A DNA stretch of 64,000 bases from the human T2T-CHM13v2.0 reference genome, Homo sapiens: the NCBI RefSeq assembly GCF_009914755.1, contig NC_060938.1; one strand, given 5' to 3'. The translations under genes were made by a program, and so were the position numbers. Under the pieces are notes generated by a model, which saw only the letters and a program-made list of their open reading frames with translations, made no database searches and was not told the DNA's origin. This document shows positions 39,901-46,396 of the stretch, one piece after another. The stretch's first letter is position 1. Every line of letters begins with the position of its first letter.

Positions 39901-42504
39901 TCTCTGCCTGCTCACTGCTGACCCTCTTTGTATGTCTCACTTTCAGATTCCCTGAAAGAGGATTAAATTGGGCCAGTTTATCCTTCTCTGTTCCTATTGG
40001 GCAGAGTTCTGCTACAAGCCATCTTAAATGGCAATGCTTTGCTTTATGTCCAGTCTATAGATGAGCAGCTTTGTCCTGAGTAGCCAGATCACATGAGACA
40101 AGTACGGCAACTGTCATGAACATCTGTCATTCGCAGCTGCCCGAAATCTTCCAAATAGTCTATCTTCGTTATCATAGTTCCTCAGTAGAAATCCTGCCTT
40201 CTCAATGTAGAACCCCAAACTCCCTTTCCAAGATTTCCTTCTTGTTAGGGTGCATACGAGTGATGTAGATTCCACTACCTAGACTCAAGCATTTGTTTCA
40301 AGATGGAGTTACATGGGGAAGGAGGGAGAGTACAGGGCCTGCATTTTGCAGGTGCAGATCCTGGCAAAGATGGTGTGGTTCTGGAGCCGGTGAAGTGAAC
40401 CACAGAAACCAAAGAAGCAATGGACATTCACATCTGCACTTACTCTATATCCCAGTTCCAGATAACTTTTTCTTTCTCTGAGGATGAGGACTTCATGGAG
40501 ACAAAAGGCCATCAAAATAGTTGCTGACATCCTGCAGCCAGAGAAAATGTTTCAAAAATGCAGATTGGATCATTACCCTCCAAAGACTTTCTTGTGCCTC
40601 TGCTATAGCCAAGGGAAGTCAGGAGTGAGCTCTCCTGTTGTTCTAGGAAGAGGATGAGAGACAGGTAAGGCAGGTCCCAGTGCATAGCTAGGGCCAGCAT
40701 ACATCACTGACTCCCAGCTGACCGAGAGATACATTGAGCTTGCCCAGCCCAGCCCACATCAGCTGACCCCCTGCTGACCCCAAAACACATGAGCAAGTCC
40801 AGCTGAGATTAGAAGAGCTGCCCAGCTTAGCCCAGATCAGCGGACCTCCGGGTAACCCTGGGACACATGAGCAAAGCCAGCTGAGGTCAGCACACTTACT
40901 CATCCCTACCCAGTTAAAATCAACCAATCCCCAGCTGAGCCACAGTTTCATTGTTAACAAGATAGAGCTACTCATTGAACTGGACCAGTCGTGGCTCCAG
41001 GACTGGAGACTGGCACTTTTCAGGTGCCACATTGAAAAGATGCTCAGGTGGCCCAATACTCTTGCCTCTGTGAGAGAGAGGAGATCCCTCCAGCACTCAA
41101 TACCCCCTCAGATTATTATTTTGAACAGCAGCAACCTGAAGGGCTTCTGTCATCAAACATTTCACCCCACATGCAGGAAACATGTGAGAATTATTAATTA
41201 TTTCCATGATCACAGTTGGACTCCACATTCTAGAAATGTGAAGACTTTGAAAGTACCACTTGCTTTGTCCTTAGGTTTTTTTTGTTTTGTTTTGTTTTGT
41301 TTTTTTGAGGTAGAGTCTCACTCTGTTGCCCAGGTTGGAGTGCGGTTGTGAGATCTTGGCTCATTGCAACCTCTGCCTCCCGGGTTCAAGCAATTCTCCT
41401 GCCTCAGCCTCTTGAGTAGCTGGGATTACAGGCATGCGCCACCATGCCCGGCTAATTTTTTTTTTTTTTTGAATTTTTAGTAGAGACAGGGTTTCACCAT
41501 ATTGGCCAGGCTGGTCTCGAACTCCTGACCTTGTTTTCTGCCCTCCTCAGCCTCCCAAAATGCTGGGATTATAGGTATGAGCCACCGCGCCCTGCCTTAT
41601 CCTTAGCTTTTTAAAGTTAAAAGTAGTGAAGTAAGTTGAAACCATTTGTATGACTCCTCCAGTAAATTGCCCCATTCACATTCAAAGGCTAGACAAAAAT
41701 CAAGGAGGGAGCTGAGAATGGGGAGTTTTCTTTGACCTTTGTGGCAGAATAAAGCCCTCATGGCCTCGGAATGAAATATGTACTCAGAAGAGGAAGAGCT
41801 TTTGGCCAGCGTTTTATGGGCTTCCCTCCCCTGCTTCCACTGAGGTCTGTGCCTGTTGCCAGCTTCTGGTTTGGTTCTAGGTGCAATGCTCACTGGTGCT
41901 CTCTGCATCTGATGTGGCTGGCAGTGTCCTGGCAACCTGAGGGGTTCAGAGTGATGGTGATGATGCTGTGTCACACCTGTCCTGGGGACACTGTGCCAGG
42001 TGGTGGAGGCATAACCAGGTACCTCATCCCAGGCCCAGGTCCTCATGGATTGCTGTGGAAAATGGTGGTATTCCTAGTCATATTTCTAATTATTAGAAGT
42101 CTACTTTATGCAAGTAGAGACAAATAACTGGCCACTTTTGCCCTTCTGGAGAAAGACATTAAATATTTTACAATCTTAACCTCATTCAGAAGAATTTTAA
42201 AAAGGCCACTATGGCTGGGTGCAGTGGCTCACACCTGTAATCGCAGCACATTGGGAGGCTGAGGTGGGCGGATCACGTGAGGTGAGGAGTTCGAGGCCAG
42301 CCTGGCCAGCATGGTGAAACCTCGTCTCTACTAAAAATACAAAAATTAGCCGGGCATGGTGGCGGGCACCTGTAATTTCACCTACTTGGGAGGCTGAGAC
42401 AGAATTGCTTGAACCCGGGAGGCGGAGGTTGTACTGAGCCAAGATTGTGCCACTGCACTCCAGCCTGGGCGACAGAGACTGTCTCAAAAAAAAAAAAAAG
42501 GAAA

Positions 42505-42950
42505 GAAAAGGCTAAATACGTATGATTCCAAGTATATGACATTCTAGAAAATGCAAAATTATGGAGATGGTAAAAAGATGAGTGGTTACCAGGGATTGGA
42601 GGAAGAGGTGTGAATAGTCAGGACACAAAGAAAGGACTTTTAGGGCAGTGAGGCTATTCTGTACAATACTGCAACGGTGGATACATTCCATTAAACATTT
42701 TTCAAAACCCAAAGAATATATAACACCAAGAGTGAGACCTAATGTAAACTATGGACCTTGGGAGATAATGATGTATCAATGTAGGTTCATCAGTTGTAAC
42801 AAATGTATCACCGTAGTGTGGGATGTTGATAGTGGTCGAGGTTGTGCATATGTGGGAACAGGGGTATATGGGAACTCTCTGTACTTTCTGCTTAATTTTG
42901 CTGCGAACCTAAAAACTGCACTAAAAAGAAAGATCTTTTTTTTTTTAACT
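42505..42950 (+). mobile_element. L1MC/MB 3' end fragment inserted within the cTAGE fossil
   Basis: CCTAATGTAAACTATGGAC...GATGTTGATAGTGG...GAACCTAAAAACTGC. Confidence 0.75.
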
Positions 42951-42989
42951 TGAAACTTACACTAAAGTTGCAAGTGCAGCACAGAAATC

Positions 42990-43635: not shown

Positions 43636-44207
43636 TCTTAAACTGTTTGGGAGTAATCACTATTTGTGATGCCCTATCACCCACCCCCAAATATTTTCGG
43701 GGGTTTACGTAGAATACTCTCCTATTTAATCACAAAAAAATCAGGGAATTAACATTGGTAATTAGCGGTATCTAATCCTGAAATCTCATTAAATTTCATC
43801 AGTGGTCCCAGTAATAAGGCAAAATAAAGAATCCACTTCAAGAAGAAAAAAAAAAGGAATTGAGAGACCTTGAATAATTTTAACAGAAGTCACATTTGAG
43901 AACAAATGATCAAAAACAGAAAAACTGGAGGCCATTAATAAAGAGCTGGAAATTTTCAACTCTTTTCTTGGGCTTAAAGAGTTTGAGAAAAGGACCGATA
44001 GAAGAGAAATCTGAACATTTAAAACAAGTTGAGGTATGATTGACATTAAAAGAAAGATTCAGTCTTCAGAAGATGCATCAAAACACGTACAACTTCAAGT
44101 AGTTGCAACCAAAACAGCTTTCAAAATACATGACAAGAATGAAAACAAATTCAGAAGCACTAAAAGATGCTTTGGATGAAAATTCTGGTTTTCAAGAAAA
44201 CATAAAG

Positions 44208-45455
44208 GGCTGGACGTGGTGGCGTCCGTTGTTAACAGTGTAATCCCATATTCCCAGCACTTTGGGAGGCTGAGGCGGGTGGATCACTTCAGTCCAGGAG
44301 TTTGAGACCAGCCTGGCCAGCATAGCTAAACCCCATCTCTACTAAAAAAAAAAAAAAAAAATACAAAAAATTAACCAGGCCTGGTGGCACACGCCTGTAA
44401 TCCCAGCTACTCAGGAAGCTAAGGCAGAAGAATGACTTGAACCCGGGAGGCAGAGGTTGCAGTGAGCCGAGATTGCACCACTGCACTCCAGCCTGGGTGA
44501 CAGAGTGGGACTCTGTCTCAAAACAAAACAAAAAAAAGAAAACATAAAGTGAAAAGTGGAATGGGAGAGTAAATTACCTTATCTAACAGAAAAAAAAATT
44601 AGAAACTCTAAATTGCATGAGACAAGGCTTTTTGTTTGTTTGTGTTTGAGACACGGTCTTGCTCTGTTGCACAGGCTGGAGTGCAATGGTGCAATCTTGG
44701 CTTATTGTAGCCTTGACTTCCCCAGTTCAAGCAATCCTCCCACTTAAGCCTCCCAAGTAGCTGGGACTACAGCTGTGCACCCACACGCCCGGCTCATTTT
44801 TTAAATTTTTTGTAGAGACAGGGTCTCCCTATATTACCCAGGCTGGTCTACGAACTCCTGGGCTCAAGTGATCCTCCTGCCTCGGCCTCCCAAAGTGCTG
44901 GGATTACAGTCATGAGCCACTGCGCCCAGCCACAAGGGACAAGCACTAAATGATAAAAAGCAAGCCCCTGGGTGAACATGTGCTAAAAGTGGGAGATTAG
45001 GCTGCCGTTCTTGAAGAAGCAAGCCTAGATGGTGGGAACTTACAATTGGATATAATGAAGATAAACCAAAACGAGCTTGAATAAATGGATTGGTACTGAT
45101 AAATTAATTGTTTAAAACCTCTTGGCCGGGTGCAGTGGCTCACGCCTGTAATCCCAGCACTTTGGGAAGCTGAGGCGGGTGGATCACGAGGTCAGGAGAT
45201 CAAGACCATCCTGGCTAACACGGTGAAACCCTGTCTCTACTAAAAATACAAAAAATTAGCCTGGCGTAGTGGCGGGCACCTGTAGTCCCAGCTATTTGGG
45301 AGGCTGAGGCAGGAGAATGGCATGAACCCGGAAGGCGGAGCTTGCAGTGAGCCGAAATCGCACCACTGCACTCCAGCCTGGGCGACAGAGTGAGACTCTG
45401 TCTCAAAAAAAAAAAACAAAAAACAAAAAACAAAGCAAAAACAAAAAAACCAAAA
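44208..45455. mobile_element. Three Alus inserted in the cTAGE fossil (+ 44208-44540, - 44629-44931, + 45124-45455)
   Basis: TSDs AAGAAAACATAAAG, ACAAGG and AAAACCTCTT duplicate pseudogene sequence. Confidence 0.9.
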
Positions 45456-46396
45456 ACCTCTTGAAGAAAAAAGAAACCAAATGTACACTAACTGAAAGAA
45501 GGTAAATTAATTGGCACACTTAAAGATCATCTTAAAAGTCTCCAAATGAGTAGGTGTCATTGCAGGAAACAAACAAACAACAACAACAACAAAACAGGAA
45601 GGGAGAGGCCAAAGCTTTGGCAGAAACTTTAAGTTCTTTCAGAATTGCATCAAGGAAAAAAATGAATTTTCACTGAAAAAACAATTCAGAGAAAGTTTGC
45701 CCTGTAAATACAGAGCAGAATCTTTTGAAAGCAGATATGAAGAGCAGTCATGCATGTAAAGAGCTGAACACCTATAAAATAGAAATCAAATTCTTTCCGA
45801 AAAATCCAAAAGAAAAGCTGGCTATTATCAAAGCTAGCTTATTACCTATAAAAGAAAGGCTTATGATAATGAGCTGGGAGCTGTGTTGGTTGAGAGAAAC
45901 CCTGATAATTTAAGAGGAGAAAATGCATACATTCATATGTCTGGAAAAGAATCCTTATATTCCAAATGGGATATTTGGCAGAGGCCCAAGAGGTTCACTA
46001 GGGAATCCTCTGGATGACCAGATCCCCAGGGAAAAAGGAACATTCAACTGTACTGTCATGGAGATCCAGGGCTCAGCATCTTGTATGAATCATATGCTGC
46101 CCTTGTTGGGTCAGGATCCCAGAGAAAGGCTCCCTTCATCAGGAGGCCAACTCCATCTCAACGTGAATCTTCTACAGGAGCAAGTGAGACCTTGTCTTGG
46201 TGTTCTTCACACTAACAGACACTTGGGATCTTCTTTTGGCTTACCTTCCTACATGACCCGGGAGCCGCTGGTTCCAGTTGATTCTTCTCTCATCCTCCTG
46301 TCAGGGTTGAGATGTTATAGAGGGGACAGAAGAGCACCAGGACGTACTATGTTGCCTTTCCATCCCTTGCTGTAACTTCATCATCAAAAGCTCCTG

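What the first reader, a model, noticed from the sequence alone, without database searches (positions are those of the whole stretch)
41954..46330. Hidden, near full-length ancient cTAGE5/MIA2 retro-fossil shattered by transposons
Seen: the non-repeat islands between Alu/L1 insertions (~41950-42200, 43835-44207, 44540-44627, 44932-45123, 45455-46330) translate into colinear cTAGE5-like peptides. They run from the N-terminal membrane segment (VLGTLCQVVEA*P..GPGPHGLLWKMVV..IRSLLYASRDK*LA), through the coiled coil ([91 protein letters not shown]), to the proline-rich tail (LEKNPY..FGRGPRG..GNPLDDQI, REPLVPVDS). Established: cTAGE5 is the multi-exon ER-exit-site partner of TANGO1 and spawned the primate CTAGE retrogene family. 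Inference: the lack of introns means a processed copy. It predates the Alus, whose TSDs duplicate its sequence, and an L1M element. It looks far more diverged than primate CTAGE copies, so it may be an unannotated pre-primate retrocopy, or a once-functional fast-evolving retrogene lost in this lineage. The comparison is from memory of the protein.
Basis: partly seen in the sequence, partly recalled or inferred. Interest (0 to 1): 0.8.

Follow-up and report, generated by a model that had tools for sequence, protein, structure and literature searches.

The report
Ancient dead cTAGE5/MIA2 retrocopy, one of many
This stretch is a roughly 100-million-year-old, intron-free, broken copy of the secretion gene MIA2/cTAGE5, later split by jumping elements; it is one of at least eleven such relics, which seem to come from a cTAGE5-like gene that no longer exists.

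Summary
Window ~41029-46380 (+) holds an intronless, stop-riddled copy of the cTAGE5 isoform of MIA2. It matches MIA2 exons and an intact CTAGE retrogene colinearly. Four Alus inside it have target-site duplications made of fossil sequence, and a 1.66-kb nested repeat block interrupts it.

Three corrections:
- The copy starts about 0.9 kb further 5' than reported.
- It lacks the last ~250 bp of coding sequence and the 3'UTR that sister copies keep.
- It is not unique. It belongs to a clade of 11 human copies with 100/100 support, star-like, with tips of 0.19-0.31 substitutions/site. Five more candidate loci exist.

A black-rhinoceros ORF matches the family consensus better than it matches CTAGE, so the family predates the human-rhinoceros split.

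The family consensus differs from MIA2 (K2P 0.35). It carries 106 of 1082 private changes, none CpG-type. It has no real stop in 342 codons. I infer, at about 0.6, that the source was a separate cTAGE5-like lineage, now lost.

The element is an ordinary processed pseudogene. Its family history is mildly interesting. I could not check GENCODE or Dfam.

The parts
40389..41064 (+). Upstream stretch shared, colinearly, only with the chr2:231.3 Mb copy. It looks like a MaLR LTR by recall. Whether it belongs to the unit is uncertain.
   Evidence: blastn against L036: 40389-40531 and 40657-41064 at 64-66%. No match appeared in any other of the 29 loci compared, apart from the known unit start in L034 (41029-41100).
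41029..41275 (+). 5' leader of the retrocopy, first part. This is the start of the shared unit.
   Evidence: The C8, C1:97.7M and C1:192.1M copies start to align at 41064, 41029 and 41064.
41276..41599 (-). Alu inserted into the leader.
   Evidence: Alu-like by self-comparison. Flanking direct repeat TCCTTAG at 41268/41600. The flanks are contiguous in C8 and C1 copies.
41600..41953 (+). 5' leader, second part. Its last ~140 bases are homologous to cTAGE5 exon 1 / CTAGE 5'UTR.
   Evidence: Family consensus 683-2384 aligns to L025 from 1363, which is 138 bases before the CTAGE ATG. Consensus 683-780 also aligns to cTAGE5 exon 1 in MIA2.
41954..42191 (+). Start-codon region, N-terminal and membrane segment.
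   Evidence: frames. Consensus translation aligns to CTAGE residues 14-89. Weak direct tblastn hit, q32-139.
42192..43850 (.). Nested insertion block: Alu 42205-42514 (+), L1-3'-end-like piece 42515-42940 (+), Alu ~42990-43285 (-), Alu 43300-43640 (+), and unclassified sequence 43641-43836.
   Evidence: The flanks are contiguous in the C2:231.3M copy (L036 3398/3401) and the C1:192.1M copy (L054 2241/2238). Window 42515-42940 gave 5005 first-look candidates genome-wide; 39 full-length matches scored 76-79%. The name 'L1' is recalled.
43851..44207 (+). First coiled-coil part.
   Evidence: Matches MIA2 exon loci L039 (43941-44032, 68%) and L040 (44109-44199, 75%) with no intron between them. 67% to CTAGE over 296 bases.
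44208..44535 (+). Alu insertion.
   Evidence: 14-base target-site duplication AAGAAAACATAAAG, made of fossil sequence.
44536..44627 (+). Coiled-coil island.
   Evidence: Matches MIA2 exon locus L041 (44550-44626, 69%) and CTAGE at 70%.
44628..44931 (-). Alu insertion.
   Evidence: Alu-like. Short flanking repeat ACAAGG.
44932..45117 (+). Coiled-coil island, including the AAVLEE stretch.
   Evidence: 65% to CTAGE over 120 bases. tblastn q267-297 at 45%.
45118..45452 (+). Alu insertion.
   Evidence: 11-base target-site duplication AAAACCTCTTG, made of fossil sequence.
45453..46380 (+). Second coiled coil to the start of the proline-rich tail. It lacks the 132-base MIA2 exon (L047) and is cut off before the end of the CDS.
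   Evidence: One HSP, 45452-45931, spans CTAGE cDNA 2484-2956. That crosses three MIA2 exon junctions whose introns are 4-5 kb. Exon L047 is missing. Sister copies run on into the CDS end and 3'UTR, but nothing in window 46200-52000 matches those tails.

Best explanation
Window ~41029-46380 is a dead processed pseudogene: an L1-type retrocopy of a spliced cTAGE5-isoform transcript of the MIA2 gene lineage.

Shown:
- It is homologous to MIA2 exons and to CTAGE retrogenes in order and without introns.
- It starts with the cTAGE5-specific first exon plus a long leader.
- It carries 7 in-frame stops in 325 codons plus frameshifts.
- It was later split by four Alus and a 1.66-kb nested repeat block.
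- It has lost its 3' end.
- It is one of at least 11 human copies that form a single star-like clade.

Inferred:
- The burst happened in stem placental mammals, before the human-rhinoceros split, roughly 100 million years ago.
- The template was not the MIA2 mRNA of the time but a separately evolving cTAGE5-like transcript, most likely an older retrogene comparable to today's primate CTAGE genes. It still had an open frame and is now lost, or is itself one of the dead copies. I give this sub-claim about 0.6.

The element has no present function that the sequence suggests.
For: Homology and lack of introns:
- Searches show colinear matches. One HSP crosses three exon junctions.
- MIA2 exons lie 2-22 kb apart.
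- 14 of 14 fetched exon loci map onto the intronless CTAGE cDNA at 87-96%.
- Naming rests: CTAGE9 at 96%, and MIA2 orthologues are named.

Later insertions.

Family:
- In an IQ-TREE tree of 26 rows, the window plus 10 other loci form one clade (100/100) with no resolved inner structure.
- MIA2 plus 5 young CTAGE copies form another clade (100/100). The same split appeared with 18 rows.

Age:
- K2P of copies to the 11-copy consensus is 0.21-0.33. One outlier of 0.50 is partly misaligned.
- The window is at 0.21, or 0.28 against a leave-one-out consensus.
- The rhinoceros hypothetical protein P0127 scores 102 bits (53%) on the family consensus against 45 bits (36%) on CTAGE. All 13 of 13 short database ORFs found with a family ORF score higher on the family consensus.

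Separate source:
- Of 1082 three-way sites, 106 are private to the family consensus. 62 of those are backed by at least 75% of copies, and 0 are CpG-type.
- Distances from the shared node to the tips are 0.44-0.5 for the other old copies, 0.15 stem + ~0.23 for this family, and 0.18 for MIA2.
- Read in the MIA2 frame, the consensus has 342 codons with 1 stop, and that stop sits at an exon-joining artefact of mine. Identity to MIA2 is 56%. Single copies have 1-13 stops in 58-336 codons.
- Neutral simulation at d=0.10 gives a mean of 4.4 stops and P(0)=0.014.
Against: - No poly(A) tail or target-site duplication of the retrocopy itself can be shown, because the 3' end is missing.
- Private changes of the family consensus are flat over codon positions (38/33/35, p=0.6). 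That is what a non-coding source would give. The test is weak, though: MIA2's own branch shows little bias (34/25/39, p=0.09), and intact young CTAGE genes show none.
- The consensus differs from CTAGE by 24 indel runs, of which only 7 are multiples of three. This is either noise from 11 decayed copies or real frameshifts in the source.
- The tree has no outgroup. The separate-source argument rests on a rough clock.
- Absence of exon L047 is not a private mark of the family. The second old family lacks it too, and so does a full-length MIA2 protein of another species.
- The 680-base extra leader has no detectable match upstream of cTAGE5 exon 1 in MIA2, but at this age none is expected.
Confidence: 0.85

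Rival explanations
1. The copy, and its ten relatives, were reverse-transcribed directly from the ordinary MIA2/cTAGE5 mRNA of stem placentals. On this view the shared 'stem' of the family is change on the MIA2 line, or an artefact of alignment and consensus, and no lost intermediate gene is needed.
For: - MIA2 is the only multi-exon relative found.
- The only full-length protein reached from a family ORF among 1.84 billion representatives is an MIA2.
- Exon L047 skipping also occurs in a real MIA2 protein.
- Private changes are flat over codon positions.
- The tree is unrooted.
Against: - 106 of 1082 sites are private to the family against both MIA2 and the second old family. 62 are strongly supported and none is CpG-type.
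- The second family and a singleton sit 0.44-0.5 from the shared node, twice the tip length of this family. They cannot have left the MIA2 line after this burst, so this family needs a stem of its own of ~0.15.
- The consensus is only 56% identical to MIA2 in protein, while a human CTAGE retrogene is still 74-78% identical to carnivore, treeshrew, bat and whale MIA2.
Confidence: 0.25
2. The family spread mainly by DNA-level (segmental) duplication of one old retrocopy rather than by repeated retrotransposition.
For: The window and the chr2:231.3 Mb copy share ~675 bases of extra upstream sequence in the same order and orientation.
Against: - Only this 1 of the 10 other clade members (29 loci compared in all) shares any flank.
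- Three other copies begin within 35 bases of each other at 41029-41064, as expected for a transcript start.
- Downstream flanks do not match.
- The copies lie on eight different chromosomes.
Confidence: 0.07
3. The islands are part of an interspersed repeat, either L1 ORF1 or an LTR element that captured cTAGE5. On this view the protein likeness is coiled-coil composition, or the copies were spread by the element.
For: - There are many copies in the genome.
- A MaLR-like stretch lies just upstream in two copies (the name is recalled).
- Coiled coils give spurious protein hits.
Against: - DNA-level colinear matches to individual MIA2 exons reach 61-75% for the window and 65-83% for the family consensus.
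- The match runs from the membrane segment through to the proline-rich tail.
- A precise exon is absent.
- Pfam found no transposase_22 or any other family in 6 of 6 peptides.
- 9 of the 10 other clade members share no flank with the window; only the chr2:231.3 Mb copy does.
Confidence: 0.03

Closest known systems
Primate CTAGE retrogene family (CTAGE1, 2, 4, 6, 8, 9, 15 and CTAGE pseudogenes)
   Same: Both are intronless copies of the cTAGE5 isoform of MIA2. Both start with the cTAGE5-specific first exon, are scattered over chromosomes, and show changes spread evenly over codon positions.
   Different: - The primate family is described as starting with a retroposition in the Haplorhini ancestor (passage read in PMC4949931, citing its reference 214).
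- Its members are 73-100% identical in protein to the chr7 CTAGE ORF, except one stop-riddled chr9 relic at 61-73%, and many are intact.
- They keep exon L047 and begin ~240 bases before the ATG.
- The window copy lies outside that clade (100/100), has K2P 0.60 to a chr7 CTAGE gene, lacks exon L047, and has ~680 bases more leader.
MIA2 (cTAGE5 / TALI), the multi-exon parent at chr14:33.46-33.54 Mb of this assembly
   Same: Same domain order: membrane segment, two coiled coils, proline-rich tail. Exon-by-exon DNA homology.
   Different: MIA2 has introns of 2-22 kb and an open frame. The window copy has no introns, 7 stops in 325 codons, K2P 0.54, and lies 16 Mb away on the same chromosome.
Ordinary L1-mediated processed pseudogenes, such as UBE2L1 and COX5AP1 in this same window (hub annotation)
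   Same: Spliced-mRNA origin, no introns, decay by stops and frameshifts, later repeat insertions.
   Different: This one is much older. Its poly(A) end is lost. It belongs to a multi-copy cohort whose consensus is not the present parent gene.

Membership tests
Processed pseudogene (retrocopy) of MIA2/cTAGE5 | Homology to the parent mRNA across several exons, in order | tested here: met
   Eight colinear exon matches. Five colinear HSPs to the CTAGE cDNA. Six colinear protein HSPs.
Processed pseudogene (retrocopy) of MIA2/cTAGE5 | Introns absent at exon junctions | tested here: met
   Window 45452-45931 aligns in one piece to cDNA 2484-2956 across three junctions. 43926-44211 aligns across two. 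The only interruptions are Alu/L1-like insertions with their own target-site duplications.
Processed pseudogene (retrocopy) of MIA2/cTAGE5 | Poly(A) tail at the 3' end | tested here: not met
   Homology stops near 46380, before the CDS end. Sister copies continue into the 3'UTR, but window 46200-52000 has no match to those tails. The 3' end is lost, so the feature cannot be seen rather than being contradicted.
Processed pseudogene (retrocopy) of MIA2/cTAGE5 | Target-site duplication flanking the whole insert | not testable with these tools
   It needs the true 3' end, which is missing. At K2P ~0.2-0.3 a 10-15 base repeat would also be largely erased.
Processed pseudogene (retrocopy) of MIA2/cTAGE5 | Disabled reading frame | tested here: met
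   7 stops in 325 codons read in the MIA2 frame. The peptides lie in three frames.
Primate CTAGE retrogene family | Descent from the Haplorhini-ancestor retrocopy, meaning it groups with CTAGE genes next to MIA2 | tested here: not met
   The window falls in a separate clade (100/100). MIA2 plus young CTAGE form their own clade (100/100).
Primate CTAGE retrogene family | Carries the 132-base exon L047 and the short 5'UTR of the young copies | tested here: not met
   Exon L047 columns are filled in 5 of 5 young copies and in MIA2. They are empty (at most 1 of 133 columns) in the window and in every other old-family and second-family row of that alignment. The leader is ~680 bases longer.
L1 ORF1 or other repeat-encoded protein | Match to a transposon protein family | tested here: not met
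   Pfam found 0 families for 6 of 6 peptides at E<=1. RepeatMasker/Dfam was not available.
MIA3/TANGO1-derived copy | Closer to MIA3 than to MIA2 | not tested
   No MIA3 sequence was obtained. Indirectly: genome-wide DNA and protein searches hit MIA2 exons and no chr1 q-arm multi-exon locus, and the only long protein reached is an MIA2.

The most novel reading that the evidence does not exclude
Stem placental mammals carried a now-extinct CTAGE-like gene, an earlier and independent counterpart of the primate CTAGE family. It split from the MIA2 line long before, kept an open reading frame while evolving fast, was expressed in the germ line, and seeded at least 11-16 retrocopies, of which this window holds one. 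A second, still older family of six copies suggests that cTAGE5 has repeatedly given birth to such short-lived retrogene lineages during mammalian evolution.
Probability: 0.5. Interest if true: 0.45.

Novelty: new member of a known kind. Interest (0 to 1): 0.3.

Why it matters
In itself this is one more dead processed pseudogene, with no sign of present function.

Its modest value lies in family history. The literature I could search describes CTAGE expansion as primate-specific (passage in PMC4949931). The human genome nevertheless holds at least two much older cohorts of cTAGE5-type retrocopies. This one appears to descend from a diverged source with an open frame.

If that holds, recurrent birth and death of cTAGE5 retrogenes is a long-standing habit of this ER-export gene, not a primate novelty. 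The decayed copies would then allow an extinct paralogue to be reconstructed.

On the practical side, such fossils produce spurious short 'hypothetical proteins' in databases. Twelve short ORFs, one of them from a rhinoceros, were found this way.

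Tried and rejected
- Pfam on six window peptides gave nothing.
- A protein search of the genome with the 153-aa open frame 45914-46375 hit only itself.
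- The whole-genome protein search with CTAGE failed once. It was repeated under a stricter filter, so its counts are a floor, and it did not list the window's own copy.
Smaller requests were used instead.
- A DNA alignment was not accepted as a genome query, so the census rests on single-sequence searches.
- Codon-position test for selection on the source: flat, but of low power.
- Indel phase in the consensus: noisy and uninformative.
- Search for the extra 5' leader upstream of cTAGE5 exon 1 in MIA2: only the exon itself matched. This is inconclusive at this age.
- Search for the missing 3' part downstream in the window: none found.
- The first alignment included misaligned parts of the chr20 and chr1:192 Mb loci. 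The chr20 row was dropped from the three-way counts but kept in the tree and in the 11-copy consensus.
- Literature: five searches found no paper on pre-primate cTAGE5 retrocopies.
- L1 ORF1, spurious coiled-coil likeness and the LTR-capture idea were considered and rejected, as given under the rivals.

Full report
**Observation**

Masking with one of the window's own Alus places Alu-like stretches at 41293-41596, 42212-42495, 42990-43600, 44249-44530, 44639-44932 and 45122-45414. Pfam found no family in 6 of 6 translated islands at E<=1.

**Identity**

- The window's assembly is held as G000, and the window is C14:49414001-49478000.
- A DNA search with island 43835-44207 gave 15 matches: itself, a group of diverged loci, and at ~70% a set of loci on chr7, chr6, chr10, chr2, chr9 and chr13. 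One 91-base match at 75% lay at C14:33483577.
- The chr7 and chr6 loci carry intact ORFs. The full 777-aa ORF of L025 is 96% identical to 'CTAGE family member 9 [Homo sapiens]'. Its further relatives are named cTAGE family members and melanoma inhibitory activity protein 2 (MIA2) of many mammals.
- Searching the 717-aa open-ended reading of this ORF (locus L017) against the genome found 14 separate exon-sized matches at C14:33465616-33537495. That is the multi-exon parent.
- 14 of 14 exon loci that I fetched map on the intronless CTAGE cDNA at 87-96%.
- A table read in PMC2386082 lists CTAGE5 at 14q13 as source gene and CTAGE6 at 7q35 as its retrocopy. That agrees with these places.

**The window against these references**

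- tblastn of that 717-aa CTAGE ORF against the whole window gave 11 HSPs at E<=10. Six lie in 42029-46051, all on the + strand and in query order (residues 32-139, 155-220, 167-196, 267-297, 440-485, 550-581; best E 1e-5). The other five are scattered noise.
- blastn gave five colinear HSPs to L025: 43926-44211 at 67%, 44550-44626 at 70%, 44939-45050 at 65%, 45452-45931 at 61%, and 45977-46039 at 76%.
- There are eight colinear matches to single MIA2 exon loci at 61-85%.
- The HSP 45452-45931 covers cDNA 2484-2956 and so crosses three exon junctions. In MIA2 those exons are 4-5 kb apart.

**Later insertions**

- Four Alus inside the fossil have flanking direct repeats made of fossil sequence:
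  - TCCTTAG at 41268/41600
  - AAGAAAACATAAAG at 44194/44536
  - ACAAGG at 44621/44932
  - AAAACCTCTTG at 45114/45453
- The block 42192-43850 is inserted material. In two sister copies the flanks are contiguous: L036 3398/3401 and L054 2241/2238.
- Its piece 42515-42940 is a high-copy repeat. It gave 5005 first-look candidates, and 39 full-length scored matches at 76-79%. That it is an L1 3' end is my recollection of the sequence, not a tool result.

**Extent**

The Alu at 41276-41599 is cleanly absent from them.
- The family consensus aligns to the CTAGE locus from 138 bases before its ATG and to cTAGE5 exon 1 inside MIA2 (C14:33455870-33456184). The template was therefore the short cTAGE5 isoform, not the long MIA2 form, and it had ~680 bases of additional leader.
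- That leader has no detectable match in the 1.87 kb upstream of exon 1. At this age none is expected, so its origin stays open.
- At the 3' end, sister copies continue through the end of the CDS and into the CTAGE 3'UTR. The window has nothing of this between 46200 and 52000. From ~46400 a different common repeat follows, with 333 first-look candidates.
- The copy therefore lacks its last ~250 coding bases, its 3'UTR and its poly(A). No target-site duplication of the whole insert can be sought.

**Not a lone fossil**

- The best genome matches of the islands are not MIA2 or CTAGE genes. They are other diverged, stop-riddled loci at chr8:73.09M, chr1:97.70M, chr20:41.24M, chr2:231.32M, chr6:131.36M, chr2:199.59M, chr5:159.77M, chr1:192.15M and chr3:87.50M.
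- The CTAGE protein search lists some twenty further weak loci.
- I fetched 23 such loci and built trees. The tree rows also drew on three loci returned by the searches themselves (L002, L006, L020).
- With 26 rows (1678 columns, IQ-TREE GTR+F+G4), the window and ten others form one clade with 100/100 support. It has no resolved inner structure, and tips are 0.19-0.31. One partly misaligned row is at 0.49.
- MIA2 plus five young CTAGE copies form another clade (100/100). Six other loci form a third, internally structured clade (100/100). Three singletons attach along the way to MIA2. The 18-row tree agrees.
- Searches with two sister copies add five more candidate loci not placed in a tree: chr2:6.32M, chr3:87.16M, chr16:81.81M, chr2:237.15M and chr2:120.64M.

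**Age**

- K2P distances of the copies to the 11-copy majority consensus are 0.21-0.33. The window is at 0.21, or 0.28 against a consensus built without it.
- With a recalled mammalian neutral rate of about 2.2e-9 per site per year, this is of the order of 100 million years.
- Independent support comes from a protein search. A 176-aa open frame of the chr2:231.3M copy, searched against 1.84 billion representatives, found only 13 proteins: 12 short ORFs of 69-156 aa and one 1342-aa protein.
- One short ORF is a hypothetical protein of Diceros bicornis minor. It scores 102 bits (53%) on the family consensus against 45 bits (36%) on CTAGE.
- All 13 of 13 short database ORFs tested score higher on the family consensus. 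One further protein, from Rhinopithecus, belongs to the young CTAGE group.
- The family, or its source, therefore predates the human-rhinoceros split.

**The source**

- The consensus is 64% identical to the CTAGE cDNA over 1765 bases. It is 64-83% identical to 11 MIA2 exons (~75% overall), with K2P 0.35 to MIA2.
- Among 1082 sites defined in this family's consensus, the second family's consensus and MIA2:
  - 106 changes are private to this family;
  - 98 are private to MIA2;
  - 130 are private to the second family;
  - 41 differ in all three.
- Of the 106, none is of the CpG-decay type, and 62 are carried by at least 75% of copies. The private stem is therefore real.
- The second family and a singleton lie 0.44-0.5 from the common node. 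That is twice this family's tip length, so they cannot be younger offshoots of the MIA2 line. This family must have had about 0.15 substitutions per site of evolution of its own before the burst.
- Read codon by codon in the MIA2 frame, the consensus gives 342 codons with a single stop. That stop falls where my exon joining also puts stops in the MIA2 row. Identity to MIA2 is 56%. Single copies show 1-13 stops in 58-336 codons.
- Random drift of an intact CTAGE frame by 0.10 per site gives a mean of 4.4 stops, with P(0)=0.014. At 0.15 the values are 6.2 and 0.0015. At 0.05 they are 2.3 and 0.10.

Evidence against a coding source:

- The private changes are flat over codon positions (38/33/35, p=0.6). 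The control is weak, because MIA2's own branch gives 34/25/39 (p=0.09), and intact young CTAGE genes differ from MIA2 by 10.4/8.4/9.3% at the three positions.
- The consensus shows 24 indel runs against CTAGE, of which only 7 are multiples of three. With 11 decayed rows I regard this as noise, but it could be real.

I therefore rate 'a separately evolving, open-frame cTAGE5-like source, now lost' at about 0.6. I rate the direct-copy rival at about 0.25.

**Exon L047**

- All 7 of 7 old copies first aligned lack exactly the 132-base MIA2 exon that I call L047. MIA2 and 4 of 4 young copies have it. In a larger alignment, 5 of 5 young copies have it, and the second family lacks it too.
- The 1342-aa protein P0133 is 73% identical to marmoset MIA2 and lacks the same segment.
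- The exon is therefore optional or lineage-specific. Its clean absence is good evidence for a spliced template, but it is not a private mark of this family.

**What is unexplained**

Window 40389-41064 aligns, in order and orientation, with sequence upstream of the chr2:231.3M copy only. By recollection it resembles a MaLR LTR. It may be coincidence, part of a longer transcript, or a trace of DNA-level duplication.

**Literature**

- Five full-text searches found no account of pre-primate cTAGE5 retrocopies.
- A passage in PMC4949931 (read via 'find') states that CTAGE shows a primate-specific expansion, starting with a retroposition in the Haplorhini ancestor and followed by DNA-based duplications. 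It cites its reference 214, which I did not see.
- Passages of PMC7829582 describe the MIA/cTAGE family without mention of old copies.
- RefSeq lists nothing at the locus (hub table).
- GENCODE, PseudoPipe, RetroGenes and Dfam could not be consulted, so prior annotation remains possible.

**Verdict**

The element is an ancient, 3'-truncated, transposon-riddled processed pseudogene of the cTAGE5 lineage. It is ordinary in kind and without apparent function. It is mildly interesting as one of at least eleven relics of what looks like an extinct CTAGE-like source in early placental mammals.

Noticed in passing
Other human loci: L051 (chr4:179.97M), L052 (chr21:36.59M), L053 (chr7:12.57M), L060 (chr12:125.91M), L062 (chr7:15.19M), L064 (chr5:43.00M): A second, older family of six cTAGE5-like fossils forms its own clade (100/100) with nested structure and node-to-tip distances of 0.46-0.6. 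It also lacks exon L047. Three further singletons (chr8:135.07M, chr9:90.75M, chr12:63.32M) attach elsewhere along the MIA2 line.
   Followed up: partly
window 40389-41064: Sequence with repeated CAGCTGA-type motifs, resembling a MaLR LTR by recollection. It is shared colinearly with the upstream flank of the chr2:231.3M copy only.
   Followed up: partly
window 46400-46550: A very common interspersed repeat directly follows the truncated fossil. It gave 333 first-look candidates and 40 scored matches at 70-93%. The family was not identified.
   Followed up: no
L047 (G000 chr14:33509555-33509689, MIA2): This 132-base, in-frame MIA2 exon is missing from both old retrocopy families and from a full-length MIA2 protein of another species (P0133). 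It is present in human MIA2 and in all young CTAGE copies. It is either a late-acquired or an optional exon.
   Followed up: partly
window 45575-45600 and the same place in sister copies: An A-rich AAC/AAACA microsatellite of variable length sits inside the coiled-coil region in most of the old copies (5 of the 7 first aligned) but not in MIA2 or CTAGE.
   Followed up: no
L025 and related loci against the MIA2 exons: Intact young CTAGE genes differ from MIA2 by 10.4, 8.4 and 9.3% at codon positions 1, 2 and 3. There is no sign of purifying selection, yet the frames are open.
   Followed up: no
Protein libraries (P0122-P0135): Decayed copies of this family have been called as short 'hypothetical proteins' of 69-256 aa in public sets. 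One is in a black rhinoceros assembly, and several are in unnamed metagenome-type sources.
   Followed up: partly
L025 1150-1243 (upstream of the young CTAGE 5' end): The ~95 bases just upstream of the young retrocopy's start match many scattered loci at 74-85%. Another repeat therefore abuts the chr7 CTAGE genes.
   Followed up: no
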